Below, in pieces: positions 2,364-56,973 of a stretch of DNA of 64,000 nucleotides. The DNA is from a virus (Duplodnaviria; Heunggongvirae; Uroviricota; Caudoviricetes): the IMG/VR virus record IMGVR_UViG_643348549_000020; one strand, given 5' to 3'. The number at the start of each line of letters is the position of its first letter. Position 1 is the first letter of the stretch. Both the position numbers and the translations under genes were made by a program. The notes beneath the pieces were generated by a model. The model made no database searches. It worked only from the letters and a program-made list of their open reading frames with translations, and was not told the origin of the DNA.

Positions 2364-2519
2364 TTACTCCTCAGGTTCGTAAGCTGTGAAGACAGCGACC
2401 TCCGTCTGGCCGGTTCGGATTCGTACCTCGCAGAGGTCTTTCCTCGTTACCAGTGCCGTCACTATGACGGTTAAACAGATGACGATCAGGGCGATTAGCA
2501 TCGCCTTTTGCTGCTTCAT
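2364..2519 (-). CDS. hok: Hok/Gef-family small membrane toxin
   Basis: 51-aa product MKQQKAMLIALIVICLTVIVTALVTRKDLCEVRIRTGQTEVAVFTAYEPEE, essentially the HokD/RelF sequence as I recall it; single TM helix. Confidence 0.85.
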   Translation of the reverse strand: MKQQKAMLIALIVICLTVIVTALVTRKDLCEVRIRTGQTEVAVFTAYEPEE

Positions 2520-2576
2520 AGCCTGCTTCTCCTTGCCTTTCGGCACGTAAGAGGCTAACCTACGTGTGTAGAGCAT
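2364..2576 (-). CDS. mok: Mok-like N-terminally extended reading frame (translational coupler of hok)
   Basis: In-frame upstream ATG gives a 70-aa ORF with a 19-aa leader before the hok Met, as in mok/hok loci. Confidence 0.5.
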   Translation of the reverse strand: MLYTRRLASYVPKGKEKQAMKQQKAMLIALIVICLTVIVTALVTRKDLCEVRIRTGQTEVAVFTAYEPEE

Positions 2577-2984
2577 AGATATGGCCTCAGATTAATGTTA
2601 AGCGTCTTGCCGGACGCGTAATGTTAACTGGGGCTTTTCTCTATCTGCCGTTGGTGTTCATGCCCGAGGCAGATAGCCTCAAGCACCCGCAGCAATTCTA
2701 CTTAACTCTCGCTTTACCGCAAACCGTTTTTACCCGATATGGGAATTCCCATATCGTAATGAATTCAGTTCCCTAGTCGATCCATCAAAAACACAACCAG
2801 GCAGTAAACGCCCACAACAGCAATAACAGCCAGCGCACCTTCCATTGCCAGTGAAATATCATCCGACATATTCCCTCCTTTGGTGTGAATCCCGGCGAAC
2901 GTTTTTACCCCCACCGACAAATAACATATACTAAAAAATCAATAGCTATAGCAACGCCTGTAATTGCAAAGGCTTCAGGCCAGA

Positions 2985-9417: not shown

Positions 9418-9475
9418 TTTCTGGTGACGTTTGGCGGTATCAGTTTTACTCCGTGACTGCTCTGCCGCCCTTTTT
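9418..9475 (+). ncRNA. dicF: DicF antisense sRNA (targets ftsZ and other mRNAs)
   Basis: TTTCTGGTGACGTTTGGCGGTATCAGTTTTACTCCGTGACTGCTCTGCCGCCCTTTTT matches DicF as I remember it, ending in a GC stem plus T-run, between ydfC and dicB. Confidence 0.6.
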
Positions 9476-42477: not shown

Positions 42478-42988
42478 TATTCCTCCCGGCCGGGATAGTG
42501 TATTAAATCAGATATGGAGTGGGCTGTAGTCCGGAAGCCTGAATGACACACGGGGACTACAGCCCAAGAAATGAAAAAAGGCCACGCAGTTGCGCAGCCT
42601 GATAAACCCTGGTTAAAATCCACACGATAACAACACAACAATATCAGTATCTCATGCTATTGCCCGAACCCATTCGGGCATTTTTTACCCATAAAAAAGC
42701 CCCTCCGGAGAGGGGCATGTTTGCATGCACATTCTTTTTCTTGCATGGTGCCGGGTGCCTCCCGGTGAATTCAGTATCAGCACCTGAATCCGCGATTATC
42801 ACATATACCTGGTTGCTGATTGCCCCTCCGCACAGGGGGATTCACCATGCGAAATTTTTTTAACAAACGCTCAGCATGTCAGGCAACATTCAACTGCCTG
42901 AATTGTGAGGCATTTAACATTTCACTGTCCGGTGTCTTTCCTGTAATAAAAAGCCCGCAAAAGAGAGTCAGGGCAGATAAGTGTGGTG

Positions 42989-43065
42989 TGGCGCGTTGTA
43001 CTGGATTCGGACCAGTGACCGATTGCTTAGAAGGCAATTGCTCTGTCCGGCTGAGCTAACAACGC
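42989..43065 (-). tRNA. tRNA-Arg (anticodon UCU)
   Basis: 77 nt; 7-bp acceptor stem GCGTTGT/ACAACGC, anticodon loop CTTCTAA, 3' CCA. Confidence 0.8.
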
Positions 43066-43078
43066 TGAATACCGATAA

Positions 43079-43155
43079 TGGACCGCCATCGGGGACCCGA
43101 ACCCCGCGCAACCAGCTTCGAAGGCTGGCGCTCTGTCCTGATGAGCTAATGGCGG
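43079..43155 (-). tRNA. tRNA-Arg (anticodon UCG)
   Basis: 77 nt; acceptor stem CCGCCAT/ATGGCGG, anticodon loop CTTCGAA, T-arm CGGGG-TTCGGGT-CCCCG, 3' CCA. Confidence 0.75.
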
Positions 43156-43164
43156 TATGTGATA

Positions 43165-43240
43165 TGGTGGCCCTTGCTGGATTTGAACCAGCGACCTGGC
43201 GATTATGAGTCGCTCGCTCTCACCACTGAGCTAAAGGGCC
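43165..43240 (-). tRNA. tRNA with CAU anticodon (Ile2/ileZ-like, possibly Met)
   Basis: 76 nt; GGCCCTT acceptor stem, anticodon loop CTCATAA, TTCAAAT T-loop, 3' CCA; resembles phage ileZ. Confidence 0.8.
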
Positions 43241-50620: not shown

Positions 50621-50947
50621 ATGACTAAAAATACTCGTTTTTCCCCCGAAGTCCGTCAGCGGGCGATTCGTATGGTTCTGGAAAGTCAGGATGAATATGA
50701 CTCACAGTGGGCGGCAATTTGTTCCATTGCCCCAAAGATTGGCTGTACGCCGGAGACTCTGCGTGTCTGGGTTCGCCAGCATGAGCGGGATACCGGGGGC
50801 GGTGATGGTGGGCTCACCAGCGCTGAACGTCAGCGTCTGAAAGAGCTGGAACGTGAAAATCGTGAACTGCGCCGCAGTAACGATATCCTTCGCCAGGCTT
50901 CCGCTTATTTTGCGAAGGCGGAGTTCGACCGCCTCTGGAAAAAATGA
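50621..50947 (+). CDS. IS629 transposase OrfA
   Basis: 108 aa, HTH plus leucine-zipper-like region, matches IS629/IS3-family OrfA. Confidence 0.9.
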
Positions 50948-51834
50948 TGCCACTGCTGGATAAGCTGCGTGAGCAGTACGGGGTCGGACCGGTATGCAGC
51001 GAACTGCATATTGCCCCGTCAACGTATTACCATTGTCAGCAACAGCGACATCATCCGGATAAACGCAGTGCCCGTGCGCAGCACGACGACTGGCTGAAGA
51101 GAGAGATACAGCGCGTATACGATGAAAATCATCAGGTGTACGGTGTGCGTAAAGTCTGGCGTCAGTTGTTACGGGAAGGAATCAGGGTGGCCAGATGTAC
51201 AGTGGCACGTCTCATGGCGGTTATGGGACTTGCCGGTGTTCTCCGGGGTAAAAAGGTCCGTACGACCATCAGCCGGAAAGCCGTTGCCGCAGGCGACCGC
51301 GTAAACCGTCAGTTCGTGGCAGAACGACCTGACCAGCTGTGGGTGGCTGATTTTACTTACGTCAGCACATGGCAGGGCTTCGTCTATGTGGCGTTTATCA
51401 TTGATGTGTTTGCCGGATACATCGTGGGGTGGCGGGTCTCATCGTCTATGGAAACGACATTCGTGCTGGATGCGCTGGAGCAGGCGTTGTGGGCCCGTCG
51501 TCCGTCTGGCACCATCCATCACAGCGATAAAGGCTCTCAGTATGTGTCACTGGCCTATACGGAGCGACTAAAAGAAGCCGGATTACTGGCATCAACAGGG
51601 AGTACAGGCGACTCGTATGACAACGCGATGGCTGAGAGCATCAATGGTCTTTACAAAGCGGAGGTAATACACCGTAAGAGCTGGAAAAACCGTGCAGAAG
51701 TGGAACTGGCCACACTAACGTGGGTGGACTGGTATAACAATCGACGATTGCTGGGAAGGCTGGGCCATACTCCTCCGGCAGAAGCAGAAAAAGCTTATTA
51801 TGCTTCCATCGGAAACGATGATCTGGCAGCCTGA
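50944..51834 (+). CDS. IS629 transposase OrfB (DDE catalytic domain)
   Basis: 296 aa, overlaps orfA as in IS3-family frameshift arrangement. Confidence 0.9.
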
Positions 51835-53995: not shown

Positions 53996-54099
53996 AACAA
54001 CCTCCGTGGTTAATTTGAATCAAGATTAAAACTATGGTTGTTTTTAGTCAACAACCATTTTCGTTTGATGGAATAAAACCTTGGTTGTACATTTGAACT
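53996..54099. promoter_or_regulatory. divergent PR/PRM-type promoter-operator region
   Basis: 104-bp intergenic region with inverted repeats (ATGGTTG ... CAACCAT) between cro and cI. Confidence 0.5.
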
Positions 54100-54789
54100 A
54101 TGAAAACAACACTCTCAGAAAGACTTAAAGAAGCCAGATTAGCGCGAGGCCTTACACAAAAGGCGCTTGGGGATTTGGTCGGGGTTAGCCAAGCTGCTAT
54201 TCAGAAAATCGAAACAGGGAAAGCTAATCAAACAACTAAAATCGTGGAGATCGCGAACGCTTTGGGTGTGCGCGCAGAATGGTTATCTTCTGGCGTTGGA
54301 AATATGTCAGACAGTACAGTGCAACCAATACAACCAACTGTCAGCCATTCCAAATACTTTAAGATTGACGTTCTTGATATAGAAGTGAGTGCCGGGCCGG
54401 GTGTCATCAACCGTGAGTTTGTAGAAGTCCTACGCTCGGTTGAGTACTCGTTTGACGATGCTCGTCACATGTTCGATGGCAGGAAGGCAGAAAATATCCG
54501 CATCATTAACGTACGCGGTGACAGCATGTCAGGAACGATTGAACCTGGTGATCTGCTGTTCGTTGATATCACGGTTAAATCTTTCGACGGTGATGGTATC
54601 TATGCGTTTCTGTACGACGACACAGCCCATGTAAAGCGCCTGCAAATGATGAAGGATAAACTGCTGGTTATCTCTGATAACAAGAGCTACTCACCGTGGG
54701 ACCCAATCGAGAAAGACGAGATGAACCGGGTGTTTATCTTCGGGAAAGTTATTGGGAGCATGCCGCAGACGTATAGGAAGCATGGATAG
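54100..54789 (+). CDS. cI: CI-like repressor with LexA/S24 autopeptidase domain
   Basis: 229 aa; N-terminal HTH; C-terminal S24 peptidase region (GDSMSG... with downstream Lys). Confidence 0.9.
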   Translation: MKTTLSERLKEARLARGLTQKALGDLVGVSQAAIQKIETGKANQTTKIVEIANALGVRAEWLSSGVGNMSDSTVQPIQPTVSHSKYFKIDVLDIEVSAGPGVINREFVEVLRSVEYSFDDARHMFDGRKAENIRIINVRGDSMSGTIEPGDLLFVDITVKSFDGDGIYAFLYDDTAHVKRLQMMKDKLLVISDNKSYSPWDPIEKDEMNRVFIFGKVIGSMPQTYRKHG

Positions 54790-54869
54790 TACCAATTAAA
54801 AATTATCAACCGGGCATTGTGCTCATTCAGTAAAACAACTTAATTATTCATTTTAGAATGGAGAACTTA

Positions 54870-55931
54870 ATGGATACTTTAAAATATGAGAAATTCTCTG
54901 ATTTTGATCACAATGACCCATTTTTTGACTCTTTAAAAAAAGATTATAAAGAGTTTCCTCTTTGGTTAGAAAAAAAAGCCAGAGAAGGAGAATCAGCTTA
55001 TGTGCTCTATGATGACAAGCATAAAATCGAAGGTTTTATGTATCTAAAAGAAAATGATGATGCAAATGACATTAATCCAGCGCTCCCACCAGGACGTCAT
55101 CTAAAGATAGGAACATTCAAATTTGAATCTAAAGGCACCCTTCGCGGACAACGATTTCTAAAAAAAGCGTTTGACCATGCATTTTCATCAAAATCTGATG
55201 ATATTTATGTTACTGTTTTCGACAAACACGTCCATCTAATAAAACTTTTCCAAACGTACGGATTTTACATTCATGGTGAAAAAGAAACACATAACGGGAA
55301 AGAGTTTGTATATGCGAGGTCTTTGCATGAGCCTTATGGTGATATTTTATTAGATTACCCTCGAATAATGACATCAAGAGCCAACAAATATTTACTGGCG
55401 ATTTATCCCGAATATCACACTAGACTATTCCCTGATTCAAAACTTGTAAATGAATCACCAGATATTGTCAAAGATATATCCCATGCTAACAGCATTCATA
55501 AAATTTACATATGTGGAATGCGTTCTGTGATGGGAATGAAAAGAGGAGATATCATTGTCATCTATAGAACCGGAGACAAAAAAGGGCCAGCTCGCTATCG
55601 TTCTGTAGCCAGTACATTATGTGTAGTTGAGAGCGTAAAAAATATTTCTGAATTTTTAAGCGAAGATAGTTTTGTAGACTATTGTATTCGTTTTAGCGTA
55701 TTTTCTGAAGATGAACTCAGAAAAATCTATAAAGAACGTCGATACCCTTTCATTATAAGATTCACATACAATCTGTCTTTGCCAAAGAGACCCAATCGTG
55801 CTATTTTAATAGATCATGTGGGGCTAAATGGTTCGCGTGCATTCCGATGGAGTCACTTTAAACTCACAAATGAGCAGTTCTTAAAGATCATCGAGTTAGG
55901 CAAGATAAATGAAAGTTTTATTATCCATTAA
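54870..55931 (+). CDS. unknown-function protein, first gene of cI-adjacent moron operon (possible GNAT-like N-terminal domain)
   Basis: 353 aa from second ATG (GGAG Shine-Dalgarno 6 nt upstream); AT-rich relative to flanking phage genes; N-terminal ~150 aa has a GNAT-like pattern (...LFQTYGFYIHGEK); start 68 nt after the cI stop. Confidence 0.55.
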   Translation: MDTLKYEKFSDFDHNDPFFDSLKKDYKEFPLWLEKKAREGESAYVLYDDKHKIEGFMYLKENDDANDINPALPPGRHLKIGTFKFESKGTLRGQRFLKKAFDHAFSSKSDDIYVTVFDKHVHLIKLFQTYGFYIHGEKETHNGKEFVYARSLHEPYGDILLDYPRIMTSRANKYLLAIYPEYHTRLFPDSKLVNESPDIVKDISHANSIHKIYICGMRSVMGMKRGDIIVIYRTGDKKGPARYRSVASTLCVVESVKNISEFLSEDSFVDYCIRFSVFSEDELRKIYKERRYPFIIRFTYNLSLPKRPNRAILIDHVGLNGSRAFRWSHFKLTNEQFLKIIELGKINESFIIH

Positions 55932-56286
55932 GCCTGAGTTTGCAGAAAAAATATTGAACGGAACAAAGCGGTTCGAGTTTCGTAAAGGTATATTCAAAAA
56001 TCCGCAAATTAGCACCGTTGTTATTTATGCCACGATGCCATTAGGTAAAGTTGTTGGTCAATTCCGTATTGAATCAATACTAAGTGACGAACCGGAATCT
56101 CTTTGGAAAAAGACGGAAAAACACGCAGGTATTTCTAAGCAATTTTATGACTCATATTATTCAGGTAGAGAAAAGGCCTACGCAATAAAAATTGGTGAAG
56201 TGGAAAGATATAAAGAACCAATTCCTATCTCTGCTCTAGGTAGTAATATTAAGCCACCACAATCATATCTTTACCTACCTGCGTAA
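55909..56286 (+). CDS. ASCH-domain (PUA-like) protein, second gene of cI-adjacent moron operon
   Basis: 125 aa; N-terminal ILNGTKRFEFR fits the ASCH GxKxxExR motif; start overlaps the end of the upstream gene by 23 nt. Confidence 0.6.
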   Translation: MKVLLSIKPEFAEKILNGTKRFEFRKGIFKNPQISTVVIYATMPLGKVVGQFRIESILSDEPESLWKKTEKHAGISKQFYDSYYSGREKAYAIKIGEVERYKEPIPISALGSNIKPPQSYLYLPA

Positions 56287-56290
56287 GAAT

Positions 56291-56317
56291 CCCGGCCACC
56301 GTGCCGGGTTTTCTTTT
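56291..56317 (+). terminator. rho-independent terminator after the cI-moron operon
   Basis: CCCGGC-loop-GCCGGG hairpin followed by TTTTCTTTT, 5 nt after the ASCH gene stop. Confidence 0.6.
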
Positions 56318-56682
56318 GCCCCTCCCCCTCATCACACAAACCATTCAAAAAACCACCACGACCTCGCTTCAGTTATCGCTATGCGATGCAAGTCACAAAA
56401 TAAATCCATCCTAAATACAACCATTTACATCTAAAAAAACCAATAAAACAACTTTTGTTGTTGACGACAAAACAACTATAGTTTTAAATAAATTCATCGC
56501 AACAACACAACGATACGGCAACCACCTGATTCACCGTTGCGATGACCGCTTAGATCCGCAGCTTGAATTTCAGCAGGCTCCGGGAAGTGCGAGGGGTGAA
56601 GTGGACGCGTGAACGTCGGTGTGACCAGCTGAAATCAACTCAACACCTCATACCTCAGTCGCTTCAACGAGGCGGCTTAGTT

Positions 56683-56973
56683 ATGACAACCGGCGGCCAT
56701 CCACCGCCTGAATACGCGCAGAAGTCTCTATATGTTCAGCAGCCCAGCTTACGGGCAGGAGTTTTTATGGTTCATCAACATTACGGAACGCAGACCGTTA
56801 ATCGCGGTGCGGTCATGCCAGGAATGCTGGTCAAACACAAAGATGGTACCTGGACTGCATCAGCTAATTTACGCGGACGGCTTTATCTGCATCGCGGCAT
56901 CGAGCGCACTTATACCCGTGATTTGCTCGTGGAAGTTTTTCTCGACGGACGCGGCAACGGCCTGAATCACTAA
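56683..56973 (+). CDS. hypothetical early-left protein upstream of gam
   Basis: 96-aa ORF from ATG (track start is TTG) with GAGG Shine-Dalgarno. Confidence 0.35.

What the first reader, a model, noticed from the sequence alone, without database searches (positions are those of the whole stretch)
54870..56317. Candidate novel exclusion/defence module in the rexAB slot: large unknown protein plus ASCH-domain protein downstream of cI
Two translationally coupled genes (353 aa and 125 aa, overlapping by 23 nt) start 68-80 nt after the cI stop, run in the same direction as cI, and end at a clean hairpin terminator (56291-56317). A PL-like promoter region follows before gam-bet-exo. This is the position where lambda carries rexA-rexB and where other lambdoid prophages carry exclusion genes. 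The pair is markedly more AT-rich than the flanking cI and recombination genes, suggesting horizontally acquired cargo. The second protein has an ASCH-type GxKxxExR motif (NGTKRFEFR); ASCH/PUA-like folds often bind modified nucleic acid. The first protein looks GNAT-like at its N-terminus, but that call is weak. I do not recognise the pair as a named defence system.
Basis: partly seen in the sequence, partly recalled or inferred. Interest (0 to 1): 0.85.

Follow-up and report, generated by a model that had tools for sequence, protein, structure and literature searches.

The report
Known GNAT-EVE/ASCH module after cI
The two overlapping genes after the prophage repressor are real and sit in the classic exclusion-gene slot. 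They are an already catalogued, widespread pair (GNAT-EVE acetyltransferase plus ASCH protein; PADLOC candidate PDC-M11; "GevT toxin/GevA antitoxin" in GenBank) whose mechanism has no accessible published characterisation.

Summary
Gene A (54870-55931, 353 aa) and gene B (55909-56286, 125 aa) overlap by 23 nt. They follow cI with no terminator or consensus promoter in between and end at a strong hairpin terminator (56291-56317). OL-type operators follow at 56411-56487. The pair has 35% GC (GC3 27%), against 47-52% in the flanks.

This is a plausible lysogen-expressed toxin-antitoxin or defence module in the rexAB slot, but it is not novel:
- Both proteins match PADLOC candidate PDC-M11 (E 3e-133 and 7e-52).
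- The pair is the GNAT-EVE plus ASCH operon predicted to be a toxin-antitoxin system by Bell et al. 2020 (who credit Iyer et al. 2013).
- A 99.9% identical phage record (PhiR47_2) labels the genes "GevT toxin" and "GevA antitoxin".

A has a GNAT fold plus an EVE/ASCH-type PUA-like domain. B is a ZmASCH-like, GKER-type ASCH with an invariant catalytic Lys/Glu. The pair, with its 23- or 29-nt overlap, is conserved in 77 of 80 species loci and 79 of 80 phage loci. Relatives fuse the core to PIN, ThsB-like TIR or ASCH domains.

Best mechanistic guess (inferred): A is an acetyl "writer/reader" toxin and B is a deacetylating "eraser" antitoxin. No phenotype data could be found.

The parts
54100..54789 (+). 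cI repressor (HTH_3 + Peptidase_S24). This is the upstream gene of the presumed cI-A-B transcript. It is context, not part of the module.
   Evidence: Pfam Peptidase_S24 1.2e-18 and HTH_3 5.5e-13. Annotated as cI in PV340567.
54790..54869 (+). AT-rich spacer (GC 0.29) between the cI stop and the A start. It carries the Shine-Dalgarno GGAG at 54860-54863. No terminator-like or consensus promoter-like site lies here.
   Evidence: Sequence, scan, GC.
54870..55349 (+). Gene A (gevT), N-terminal GNAT-like acetyltransferase domain (residues ~1-160). Invariant residues include G93, R95, K98 and K99 in the divergent acetyl-CoA loop 'KGTLRGQRFLKK', plus Y130-G131-F132 and N142-G143.
   Evidence: Profile vs PDB: PaiA 1tiq E 3.3e-5 over residues 3-146. 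Foldseek: PaiA E 8e-7, plus Naa50, Ard1 and NatD. phrog_13728 acetyltransferase 4e-24. Invariant columns.
55350..55931 (+). Gene A (gevT), C-terminal PUA-like domain of the EVE/ASCH/YTH clade (residues ~161-353). It lacks the GxKxxExR octapeptide, so a reader rather than eraser role is inferred.
55909..55931 (+). 23-nt overlap of the A 3' end with the B 5' end (translational coupling). The same 23-nt (67 of 76) or 29-nt (9 of 76) overlap is conserved across phyla.
55909..56286 (+). Gene B (gevA), a stand-alone GKER-type ASCH protein. The octapeptide G18-x-K20-x-x-E23-x-R25 is invariant, as are Y40 and S119 (ZmASCH Y47 and S128).
   Evidence: Pfam ASCH 2.5e-8. PDC-M11B 6.8e-52. Profile vs PDB: ZmASCH 5gus/5guq E 7.5e-18, full length. 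Residue conservation.
56291..56317 (+). Intrinsic terminator that closes the module (6 G-C pairs, 6-nt loop, U-run).
   Evidence: Scan. Fold -15.2 kcal/mol, z -3.3.
56411..56487 (.). Three OR-type operator motif copies, read as the OL/PL region. They mark the downstream boundary of the slot. This is context.
   Evidence: Inverted-repeat matches I1, I3 (95% over 19 nt), I8 and I10 to 54026-54069.

Best explanation
This is a copy of the GNAT-EVE plus ASCH two-gene module, known as PADLOC candidate PDC-M11 and annotated 'GevT toxin / GevA antitoxin' in GenBank. It is carried as horizontally acquired cargo in the rexAB slot of a lambdoid prophage.

Shown here: the identity of the module, its domain architecture, the near-obligate and translationally coupled pairing of the two genes, and the hotspot position.

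Inferred:
1. The pair is transcribed with cI from the maintenance promoter, so it is made in lysogens.
2. GevT is a toxin. Its EVE-like domain docks it on a particular, possibly modified, nucleic acid, most plausibly tRNA or other RNA. Its GNAT domain then acetylates that target and blocks translation or replication.
3. GevA holds GevT in check, most likely by removing the acetyl mark as an ASCH amidohydrolase 'eraser', possibly also by binding GevT.
4. Infection by another phage tips the balance toward GevT and aborts the infection. The lysogen population is thereby protected, as with RexAB, and by the same writer/eraser logic as DarT-DarG.
For: Identity: PDC-M11A 2.9e-133 and PDC-M11B 6.8e-52; the 99.9% identical record is annotated 'GevT toxin' and 'GevA antitoxin'; the architecture matches the GNAT-EVE plus ASCH operons predicted as toxin-antitoxin systems and noted in beta/gamma-proteobacterial prophages (PMC7641849).

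Folds: GNAT and an EVE/ASCH-clade PUA domain.

Functional coupling: B lies directly downstream of A, overlapping it, in 77 of 80 species loci from many phyla and in 79 of 80 phage loci. The overlap is fixed at 23 or 29 nt. Identities of A and B to the query are correlated, r = 0.60. Fusion proteins join the GNAT-EVE core to a GevA-type ASCH: P0318, B profile 8.5e-34, PDC-M11A plus PDC-M11B in one chain.

Immune association: relatives carry an N-terminal PIN domain or a ThsB-like TIR domain (7.5e-53). The slot alternately holds another toxin-antitoxin / PDC candidate.

Lysogen expression: same strand as cI, 80-nt gap, no terminator in between, one terminator after B.

Eraser idea: B is a full-length homologue of ZmASCH (7.5e-18). 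In a 2026 preprint, all 19 ASCH proteins tested, including ZmASCH, removed ac4C from tRNA in vitro, and the octapeptide Lys and Glu were essential (10.64898/2026.02.27.708502). B keeps G18, K20, E23 and R25 in 32 of 32 homologues. B is more conserved than A in 61 of 76 pairs, p = 1e-8. That fits an enzyme better than a fast-evolving proteic antitoxin. The toxin-first gene order resembles DarTG (my own knowledge of that system).
Against: No toxicity, neutralisation or phage-resistance data are accessible. The 'toxin/antitoxin' labels rest on a GenBank annotation only, and ten literature searches found no paper. PDC-M11 is a candidate, not a validated system.

The acetyl-CoA loop of the GNAT domain is divergent: KxxLxG instead of Q/RxxGxG/A, by the PaiA alignment. 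The usual catalytic Tyr position is Phe. Activity is therefore unproven.

The substrate is unknown. GevT is unrelated to the known ac4C writer TmcA. The aa-tRNA-acetylating toxins do not appear among the 50 Foldseek matches listed, of 326 with E <= 0.001.

ZmASCH showed no activity on free ac4C and no significant effect in vivo. It was earlier reported as an ssRNA RNase (PMC5615036), so B could be a nuclease or a simple binder.

Fused A-B proteins and the PIN/TIR fusions could equally mean that GNAT-EVE/ASCH is a sensor module rather than the effector.

No transcript data exist for the cI-A-B operon.
Confidence: 0.55

Rival explanations
1. Classical type II toxin-antitoxin / abortive infection. 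GevT is an acetyltransferase toxin and GevA neutralises it purely by forming a tight protein complex. The ASCH cleft is used for binding GevT or for operator/RNA binding, not for catalysis.
For: The GenBank 'toxin'/'antitoxin' labels. Tight translational coupling and fixed stoichiometry. Co-evolution of A and B, r = 0.60. A-B fusion proteins resemble fused toxin-antitoxin proteins in which the antitoxin domain auto-inhibits. HTH-ASCH fusions reported by Bell et al. suggest a DNA-binding or regulatory role.
Against: B is more conserved than A, and its catalytic-type residues G18, K20, E23, R25, Y40 and S119 are invariant. Neither is expected for a mere binding partner. The toxin-first order is atypical for type II systems. 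L070 and L077 have A without an adjacent B but with a distant (32-33% identical) ASCH elsewhere in the locus. That is hard to reconcile with specific protein-protein neutralisation.
Confidence: 0.25
2. A nucleic-acid modification system that serves the phage itself rather than a defence. GevT acetylates bases in DNA or RNA and GevA tunes or reads the mark. The purpose would be, for example, to evade host restriction or to reprogram host translation.
For: According to Bell et al., Iyer et al. 2013 proposed base acetylation. Bell et al. 2020 suggested that GNAT-EVE might protect phages against host restriction-modification systems. EVE homologues bind 5mC/5hmC DNA (THYN1, VcaM4I).
Against: The position after cI, closed by a single terminator, implies expression in the lysogen and not during lytic growth. 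Sibling phages with near-identical cI (95-97%) lack the module, so it is dispensable. PIN and ThsB-TIR fusions and the PADLOC candidacy point to immunity. Many copies lie outside phages, next to RM/Kiwa/NERD-type genes.
Confidence: 0.1
3. GNAT-EVE plus ASCH is chiefly a sensor or regulatory core. In long relatives the killing is done by the appended PIN or TIR domain. The short form here is either a weak or decayed version, or it modulates host tRNA acetylation (lysogenic conversion) without abortive infection.
For: Modular N-terminal effectors (PIN, ThsB-like TIR) on an otherwise conserved core. About 20% of loci add an AAA_17/18 P-loop protein. A further unknown ~380-aa partner recurs.
Against: The short form is the commonest class: 73 of the top 150 representatives. 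It is strongly conserved, with many invariant polar residues in both domains. It is 99-100% conserved across 275 E. coli genomes. None of this fits a decayed remnant.
Confidence: 0.08
4. A conserved phage housekeeping function in replication, recombination or regulation.
For: None beyond its location in the early region.
Against: Presence or absence varies among phages with 95-100% identical cI and similar flanks. The composition is foreign. Distribution is broad across non-phage contexts and phyla. Both PHROG families are annotated 'unknown function'.
Confidence: 0.02

Closest known systems
PADLOC phage-defence candidate PDC-M11 (PDC-M11A + PDC-M11B)
   Same: Both proteins match the models over their full length (2.9e-133 and 6.8e-52). 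The genes are adjacent on the same strand. PDC-M11 has been reported in an O157:H7 strain (10.64898/2026.07.23.740414).
   Different: Nothing structural. PDC-M11 is only a candidate, with no validated phenotype found. Its model set also covers the longer PIN-containing form.
(PIN)-GNAT-EVE + ASCH operons of Bell, Wolf and Koonin 2020, who credit Iyer et al. 2013; 'GevT/GevA' in GenBank PV340567
   Same: GNAT N-terminal domain, EVE-like C-terminal domain, an adjacent ASCH gene, and prophage location in gamma-proteobacteria. The sequence is 99.9% identical to the annotated GevT/GevA.
Phage lambda RexA-RexB
   Same: Same genomic slot (between cI and OL/PL). Same strand as cI, with presumed co-transcription in lysogens. 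A two-gene exclusion or abortive-infection cargo. (The RexAB biology is from my own knowledge.)
   Different: No sequence or fold relationship: the only PADLOC hits are PDC-M11. RexAB is thought to act as a sensor plus membrane ion channel. The pair here consists of a soluble acetyltransferase-type protein and an ASCH-type protein.
GNAT toxins of type II TA systems (TacT, AtaT, ItaT, KacT)
   Same: GNAT fold, and a predicted toxin that acts on the translation machinery by acetylation. Bell et al. suggested aa-tRNA as a possible target.
   Different: Those toxins have no EVE domain. Their antitoxins are RHH/DUF1778 proteins encoded upstream that neutralise by binding (my own knowledge). None appears among the 50 Foldseek matches listed. 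Here the partner is a downstream ASCH protein with catalytic-type residues.
DarT-DarG
   Same: A working analogy only. The toxin is first in the operon and writes a covalent mark on nucleic acid. The antitoxin belongs to an enzyme family that erases that kind of mark. DarTG provides abortive-infection defence (my own knowledge).
   Different: The chemistry (ADP-ribosylation versus presumed acetylation) and the folds (DarT/macrodomain versus GNAT-EVE/ASCH) differ. The writer/eraser relation here is inferred, not shown.
ASCH enzymes: ZmASCH, TthASCH, YqfB, EOLA1, TRIP4
   Same: B aligns over its full length with ZmASCH (7.5e-18). It belongs to the GKER octapeptide subgroup, and its Lys and Glu are conserved. 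That dyad is essential for tRNA ac4C removal.
   Different: ZmASCH is not encoded next to a GNAT-EVE gene: its upstream neighbour gives hhalign probability 0.09%. YqfB is the GKTR subgroup and acts on the free nucleoside. B's own activity is untested.

Membership tests
PADLOC PDC-M11 | Protein A matches a PDC-M11A profile | tested here: met
   PDLC04419 E 2.9e-133, residues 3-352 against profile 11-356 of 357.
PADLOC PDC-M11 | Protein B matches a PDC-M11B profile and is adjacent to A | tested here: met
   PDLC04425 E 6.8e-52, full length. Genes overlap by 23 nt.
GNAT-EVE + ASCH operon (Bell 2020, crediting Iyer 2013) | N-terminal GNAT-like acetyltransferase domain | tested here: met
   PaiA 1tiq by profile 3.3e-5 and by Foldseek 8e-7 with many other GNATs. 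The acetyl-CoA loop motif is divergent.
GNAT-EVE + ASCH operon (Bell 2020, crediting Iyer 2013) | C-terminal EVE domain (PUA-like, six-stranded barrel) | tested here: inconclusive
GNAT-EVE + ASCH operon (Bell 2020, crediting Iyer 2013) | Adjacent ASCH-domain gene in the same operon | tested here: met
   Pfam ASCH 2.5e-8. The pairing is conserved in 77 of 80 and 79 of 80 loci.
Toxin-antitoxin system | A is toxic when expressed alone, and B neutralises it | not testable with these tools
   Only a GenBank annotation ('GevT toxin', 'GevA antitoxin'). No paper found.
Anti-phage defence system | Confers resistance to phage infection when expressed | not testable with these tools
   No phenotype found in the library.
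Anti-phage defence system | Resides in variable defence or cargo hotspots and associates with immune domains | tested here: met
   The slot alternately holds GevTA, HipA/HipD (PDC-M66), an unknown pair, or nothing. Relatives are fused to ThsB-like TIR (7.5e-53) or PIN. Neighbours in genomes include KwaB, NERD, HsdR_N and ResIII.
Lambda RexAB | Homology to RexA/RexB | tested here: not met
   The PADLOC scan returned only PDC-M11 families. The folds are GNAT/PUA.
Lambda RexAB | Location between cI and OL/PL, on the same strand as cI | tested here: met
   In Pantoea locus L002 the order is cI, A, B, N.
GNAT aa-tRNA-acetylating toxins (TacT/AtaT type) | Small single-domain GNAT with an upstream RHH/DUF1778 antitoxin | tested here: not met
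   A is a two-domain protein. The partner is a downstream ASCH. The upstream gene is cI.
GKER-type ASCH tRNA ac4C deacetylases (Statkeviciute 2026 preprint) | Octapeptide GxKxxExR with the catalytic Lys and Glu | tested here: met
   G18, K20, E23 and R25 are invariant in 32 of 32 homologues.
GKER-type ASCH tRNA ac4C deacetylases (Statkeviciute 2026 preprint) | Deacetylase activity on acetylated nucleic acid | not testable with these tools
   Biochemistry is required.

The most novel reading that the evidence does not exclude
GevT and GevA are an enzymatic writer/eraser pair for nucleic-acid acetylation. On this reading GevT, an EVE-guided GNAT, acetylates a base or aminoacyl group on tRNA/RNA (or DNA) as its toxic or antiviral act. 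GevA, a GKER-type ASCH, is a dedicated deacetylase that reverses it. This would be an acetylation counterpart of DarT-DarG, embedded in the cI operon of a prophage. It would be the first natural 'acetyl-mark' immune switch, and it would give ASCH erasers a physiological partner.
Probability: 0.3. Interest if true: 0.8.

Novelty: already known. Interest (0 to 1): 0.35.

Why it matters
As a catalogue entry it adds nothing new. The identical genes are already in PADLOC (PDC-M11), in the comparative-genomics literature (GNAT-EVE plus ASCH), and in GenBank as GevT/GevA.

It matters mainly as a pointer. The module is very widespread: about 1,900 representative clusters at 50% identity across many bacterial phyla, with a homologue in an archaeal virus, and 277 of 5,426 complete E. 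coli genomes including many O157:H7 strains. The two-gene architecture is unusually rigid, and no accessible publication describes its mechanism.

Two recent observations make a specific chemical hypothesis directly testable. The first is the report that ASCH proteins deacetylate tRNA ac4C. The second, from this analysis, is that the catalytic dyad is invariant and that B is more conserved than A. The hypothesis is acetyl writer/reader toxin versus acetyl eraser antitoxin.

The analysis also documents the slot after cI in this phage lineage as a hotspot that swaps toxin-antitoxin or defence cargo.

Tried and rejected
1. Literature. No paper characterises GevTA or PDC-M11. The reference list of the Laub-lab SNIPE preprint, which uses the PhiR phage panel, is not held. 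Iyer et al. 2013 (PMC3763556) is not held either.

2. Pfam on protein A gave nothing at E <= 1. The domains were established by PDB profile search and structure instead.

3. Idea: ZmASCH comes from the same operon type, which would transfer its biochemistry directly. Rejected. Its upstream 375-aa neighbour is not GNAT-EVE (hhalign probability 0.09%, no PADLOC hit) and is not the C380 family.

4. Idea: A's C-terminal domain and B are recent paralogues. Only the beta-1 motif aligns (21 columns, probability 24%).

5. Idea: adjacency to a repressor is universal. Rejected for genomes (HTH_3 in 4 of 73, S24 in 2 of 73). It holds for about half of the non-redundant phage contexts (16 of 33). Another phage group places the module next to the integrase.

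6. Idea: the overlapping 341+149 aa pair in the same slot of PhiR68_2 is a divergent GevTA. Rejected (hhalign probability < 1%, no PADLOC hit).

7. Idea: a put-like or other structured RNA sits between the terminator and kil, since no N gene is annotated. The fold z-score is -0.93 and there is no credible Rfam hit.

8. An internal promoter for B, analogous to PLIT in rexA. Only a 9/12 match exists at 55779-55807. Promoter-like sites in the region are no more frequent than in shuffles (6 found, 7.8 expected).

9. Housekeeping function: rejected by the empty slot in PhiR34_1.
Full report
**1. Observation**

The ORF list shows gene A at 54858/54870..55931 (357/353 aa) and gene B at 55909..56286 (125 aa), both on the + strand. 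They overlap by 23 nt. Upstream lies a 229-aa HTH_3 + Peptidase_S24 repressor at 54100..54789.

The 54870 ATG is the true start of A. GGAG lies 6 nt upstream, all 36 aligned homologues begin at the equivalent Met, and RefSeq uses this start.

A G+C-rich hairpin (stem 56291-56308) followed by a T-run ends the pair. It folds at -15.2 kcal/mol, z = -3.3, and none of 200 shuffles folds as well. Neither a terminator-like nor a consensus promoter-like site lies between the cI stop and A.

The pair has GC 0.351 (GC3 0.27-0.28). By comparison, cI is 0.467, kil-gam-bet-exo is 0.518, and the whole window is 0.502.

Three copies of the OR-type operator motif lie at 56411-56487; one is 95% complementary over 19 nt to 54026-54044. 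OL/PL therefore follows the terminator, and the pair occupies exactly the position of lambda rexAB.

**2. What the proteins are**

Pfam finds nothing in A, and finds ASCH (PF04266, 2.5e-8) in B. PADLOC matches both over their full length:
- PDC-M11A at 2.9e-133
- PDC-M11B at 6.8e-52

PHROGs places both in families of unknown function. The N-terminal half of A also hits an 'acetyltransferase' PHROG at 4e-24.

*Protein A, N-terminal half.* A 37-sequence profile of A matches the GNAT PaiA (1tiq) at 3.3e-5 over residues 3-146. An AlphaFold2 model (pLDDT 87, pTM 0.84) matches PaiA and many N-terminal acetyltransferases by Foldseek.

So A is a GNAT domain fused to a PUA-like domain of the EVE/ASCH/YTH clade.

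*Protein B.* The B profile matches ZmASCH (5GUS/5GUQ) over its full length at 7.5e-18. B's octapeptide G18-x-K20-x-x-E23-x-R25, and Y40 and S119 (ZmASCH Y47 and S128), are invariant in 32 of 32 homologues.

**3. It is already known**

The DNA of 54790-56320 is 100% identical in phage IdasGreatGrand and 99.9% identical in seven other coliphage records. In one of them, PhiR47_2 (PV340567), the two genes are annotated 'GevT toxin' and 'GevA antitoxin'.

The segment occurs once per genome, at >= 99% identity, in 275 of 5,426 complete E. coli genomes; 277 have a match. Many are O157:H7. In strain EC4115 the prophage sits at mlrA, and RefSeq calls A 'hypothetical protein'.

Bell, Wolf and Koonin (2020, PMC7641849) describe precisely this arrangement:
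- almost always an ASCH gene in the operon, and often an AAA_17 ATPase
- predicted to be a toxin-antitoxin system

They credit Iyer et al. 2013 for the first description. 'Gev' very probably abbreviates GNAT-EVE; that is my inference. PDC-M11 is listed as a 'phage defense candidate' in an O157:H7 strain in a 2026 preprint.

**4. Co-occurrence and context, tested here**

*Species genomes.* A scan of one genome per species returned 156 relatives of A, of which 80 were kept. They span Proteobacteria, Bacteroidota, Firmicutes, Verrucomicrobia, Acidobacteria, Planctomycetes-type and Campylobacterota genomes.
- B lies directly downstream on the same strand and overlaps A in 77 of 80 loci.
- The overlap is 23 nt in 67 and 29 nt in 9 of the 76 pairs analysed.
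- B is more conserved than A: mean identity to the query is 54.5% versus 49.9%, with B > A in 61 of 76 pairs, Wilcoxon p = 1e-8. The identities co-vary, r = 0.60.
- The exceptions are L013 (B inverted) and L070/L077 (B deleted, with a distant ASCH elsewhere in the locus).

*Viral contigs.* In IMG/VR, 212 contigs encode relatives of A. B is present in 79 of the 80 retrieved; the remaining contig is truncated.

*Neighbours in genomes.* They are heterogeneous. The only recurrent one is an AAA_17/18 P-loop protein, found upstream in 9 of 73 loci and downstream in 7 of 77. HTH_3 proteins are upstream in 4 of 73 loci and Peptidase_S24 in 2 of 73.

*Neighbours in phage contigs.* Of 33 non-redundant upstream genes, 16 are HTH repressors, 8 with S24 and 8 with Phage_CI_repr. 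They usually have a small divergent cro-like gene beyond. Another phage group places the module next to the integrase. Pantoea locus L002 has the order cI, A, B, N.

*The slot in this phage lineage.* Phages with 95-100% identical cI carry one of four contents in the slot:
- GevT/GevA
- 'HipA toxin/HipD antitoxin', which matches PADLOC PDC-M66 (PhiR5_1)
- an unrelated overlapping 341+149 aa pair (PhiR68_2)
- nothing (PhiR34_1)

. The slot is therefore a cargo hotspot and the module is dispensable for the phage.

**5. Family breadth and fusions**

An exhaustive HMM search found 1,880 representative clusters (50% identity) at E <= 1e-3, and 384 at E <= 1e-30. Among the best 150:
- 73 are ~350 aa
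- 25 carry a ~150-aa N-terminal extension
- 16 are longer than 540 aa
- 36 are fragments

The extensions are:
- PIN, by weak Pfam hits
- a ThsB-like TIR (P0252: ThsB 7.5e-53, core PDC-M11A 4e-133)
- an N-terminal ASCH (P0343 and others)

. P0318 is PIN-GNAT-EVE followed by a GevA-type ASCH: B profile 8.5e-34, and PDC-M11A plus PDC-M11B in one chain. These fusions confirm a functional link between A and B. They also tie the core to typical immune effector domains.

**6. Mechanism**

*Shown:* the architecture, the coupling and the hotspot context.

*Inferred:*
- (a) Expression with cI in lysogens. The genes share cI's strand, are 80 nt downstream with no terminator between, and a single terminator follows B.
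- (b) GevT is an acetyltransferase toxin whose EVE-like domain selects a nucleic-acid target. Bell et al. suggested aa-tRNA or modified RNA/DNA.
- (c) GevA antagonises it.

I favour an enzymatic 'eraser' role for GevA, for four reasons.
- A 2026 preprint reports that all 19 ASCH proteins tested, including ZmASCH, remove N4-acetylcytidine from tRNA in vitro. In the GKER subgroup the octapeptide Lys and Glu are essential.
- GevA keeps that dyad invariantly.
- GevA evolves more slowly than GevT.
- The toxin-first, overlapping gene order resembles DarT-DarG (my own knowledge).

A's own PUA-like domain lacks the octapeptide (alignment; the hhalign match covers only the beta-1 strand). That fits a reader rather than an eraser.

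*Caveats:*
- GevT's acetyl-CoA loop is divergent.
- ZmASCH was inactive on free ac4C and had no significant effect in vivo. It was earlier described as a Mg-dependent ssRNA RNase (PMC5615036).
- ZmASCH is not encoded beside a GNAT-EVE gene.
- Fusion proteins are equally compatible with an auto-inhibitory or sensor role for ASCH.

The trigger, the substrate and any phage-resistance phenotype remain unknown.

**7. Verdict**

The pair is a credible lysogen-expressed toxin-antitoxin or defence candidate in the rex slot. It is an already catalogued and named module, not a new one.

Interest is modest (0.35). It rests on the unresolved mechanism and on the now-testable writer/eraser hypothesis, to which I give a probability of about 0.3.

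Noticed in passing
L058:7465-8637, L070:7077-8234, L077:6738-7889, L009:4835-5971, L133:4835-5971 (not in the window): A third recurrent partner family of ~380 aa with no Pfam or PADLOC hit. It lies downstream of A-B in Sinorhizobium. In Rhizobium and Agrobacterium it lies directly after A, where B is deleted. In Raoultella and ten enterobacterial phage contigs it lies upstream of A-B. The alpha- and gamma-proteobacterial versions are 22-27% identical (E 1e-20 to 1e-28). It was found in 7 of 80 genome loci and 10 of 80 viral loci.
   Followed up: partly
L070 and L077 (Rhizobium / Agrobacterium): A occurs without an adjacent B. The B start inside A's tail is mutated and the gene is gone. A distant ASCH (32-33% identical) lies 2.5-6 kb away on the other strand. 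This suggests that B's role may be supplied in trans.
   Followed up: partly
P0252, P0318, P0343 (proteins): Fusion relatives of A. P0252 is a ThsB-like TIR plus GNAT-EVE. P0318 is PIN, GNAT-EVE and a GevA-type ASCH in one chain. P0343 is an N-terminal ASCH, PIN and GNAT-EVE.
   Followed up: yes
L168:4046-5501 (phage PhiR68_2), same slot after a related cI: An unrelated overlapping two-gene pair (341 + 149 aa, 20-nt overlap), annotated hypothetical. It has no PADLOC hit and no similarity to GevTA. It is another uncharacterised cargo module in the rex slot.
   Followed up: partly
L167:4313-5886 (phage PhiR5_1), same slot: A pair annotated 'HipA toxin / HipD antitoxin' occupies the slot. It matches PADLOC candidate PDC-M66A/B at 6e-15 and 4e-16.
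   Followed up: partly
L133-L161 subset (viral contigs with A 56-59% identical): In this phage group the module sits next to the phage integrase, which lies just downstream of B. Upstream is either the ~380-aa family or a 260-aa family with a weak DUF3644 hit.
   Followed up: partly
H64/H65: Methanothermobacter phage psiM100 8698-9534: A 27%-identical homologue of A (E 9e-15) lies in the 'inserted fragment IFa' (ORFD) of an archaeal virus. The family therefore reaches archaeal viruses as mobile cargo.
   Followed up: no
window 56318-56766: No N-like antiterminator ORF is annotated between OL/PL and kil. GenBank extends 'Kil' to 56587-56973, while RefSeq annotates only the last 68 codons. That 128-aa ORF has no Pfam hit. 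The region shows no significant RNA structure (z -0.93) and no credible Rfam match.
   Followed up: partly
window 50902-51018 (+) and ~51.8-52.2 kb: An ALIL pseudoknot (Rfam, 121 bits) marks an IS3-family element. In EC4115 the corresponding IS1203 copy interrupts replication gene P.
   Followed up: partly
window 2514-2688 (-), 9419-9470 (+), 42625-42686 (+), 42687-42879 (-), 42992-43240 (-): Rfam gathering-level hits: sok antitoxin RNA, DicF, the AgvB anti-GcvB sRNA next to STnc100, and three tRNAs. These are typical prophage-borne small RNAs and a tRNA island.
   Followed up: no
window 55779-55807 (+): A weak promoter-like site (TTGCCA-17-TATTTT with an upstream TG, 9/12) lies inside the 3' part of A, about 100 nt before B. 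It recalls PLIT inside rexA. However, promoter-like sites here are no more frequent than in shuffles.
   Followed up: no
L163:3825-5447 (Zymomonas mobilis): ZmASCH, the crystallised homologue of B, lies 48 nt downstream of a same-strand 375-aa protein. That protein has no Pfam or PADLOC hit and is unrelated to GevT or the ~380-aa family. It may be a different ASCH-partnered pair.
   Followed up: partly
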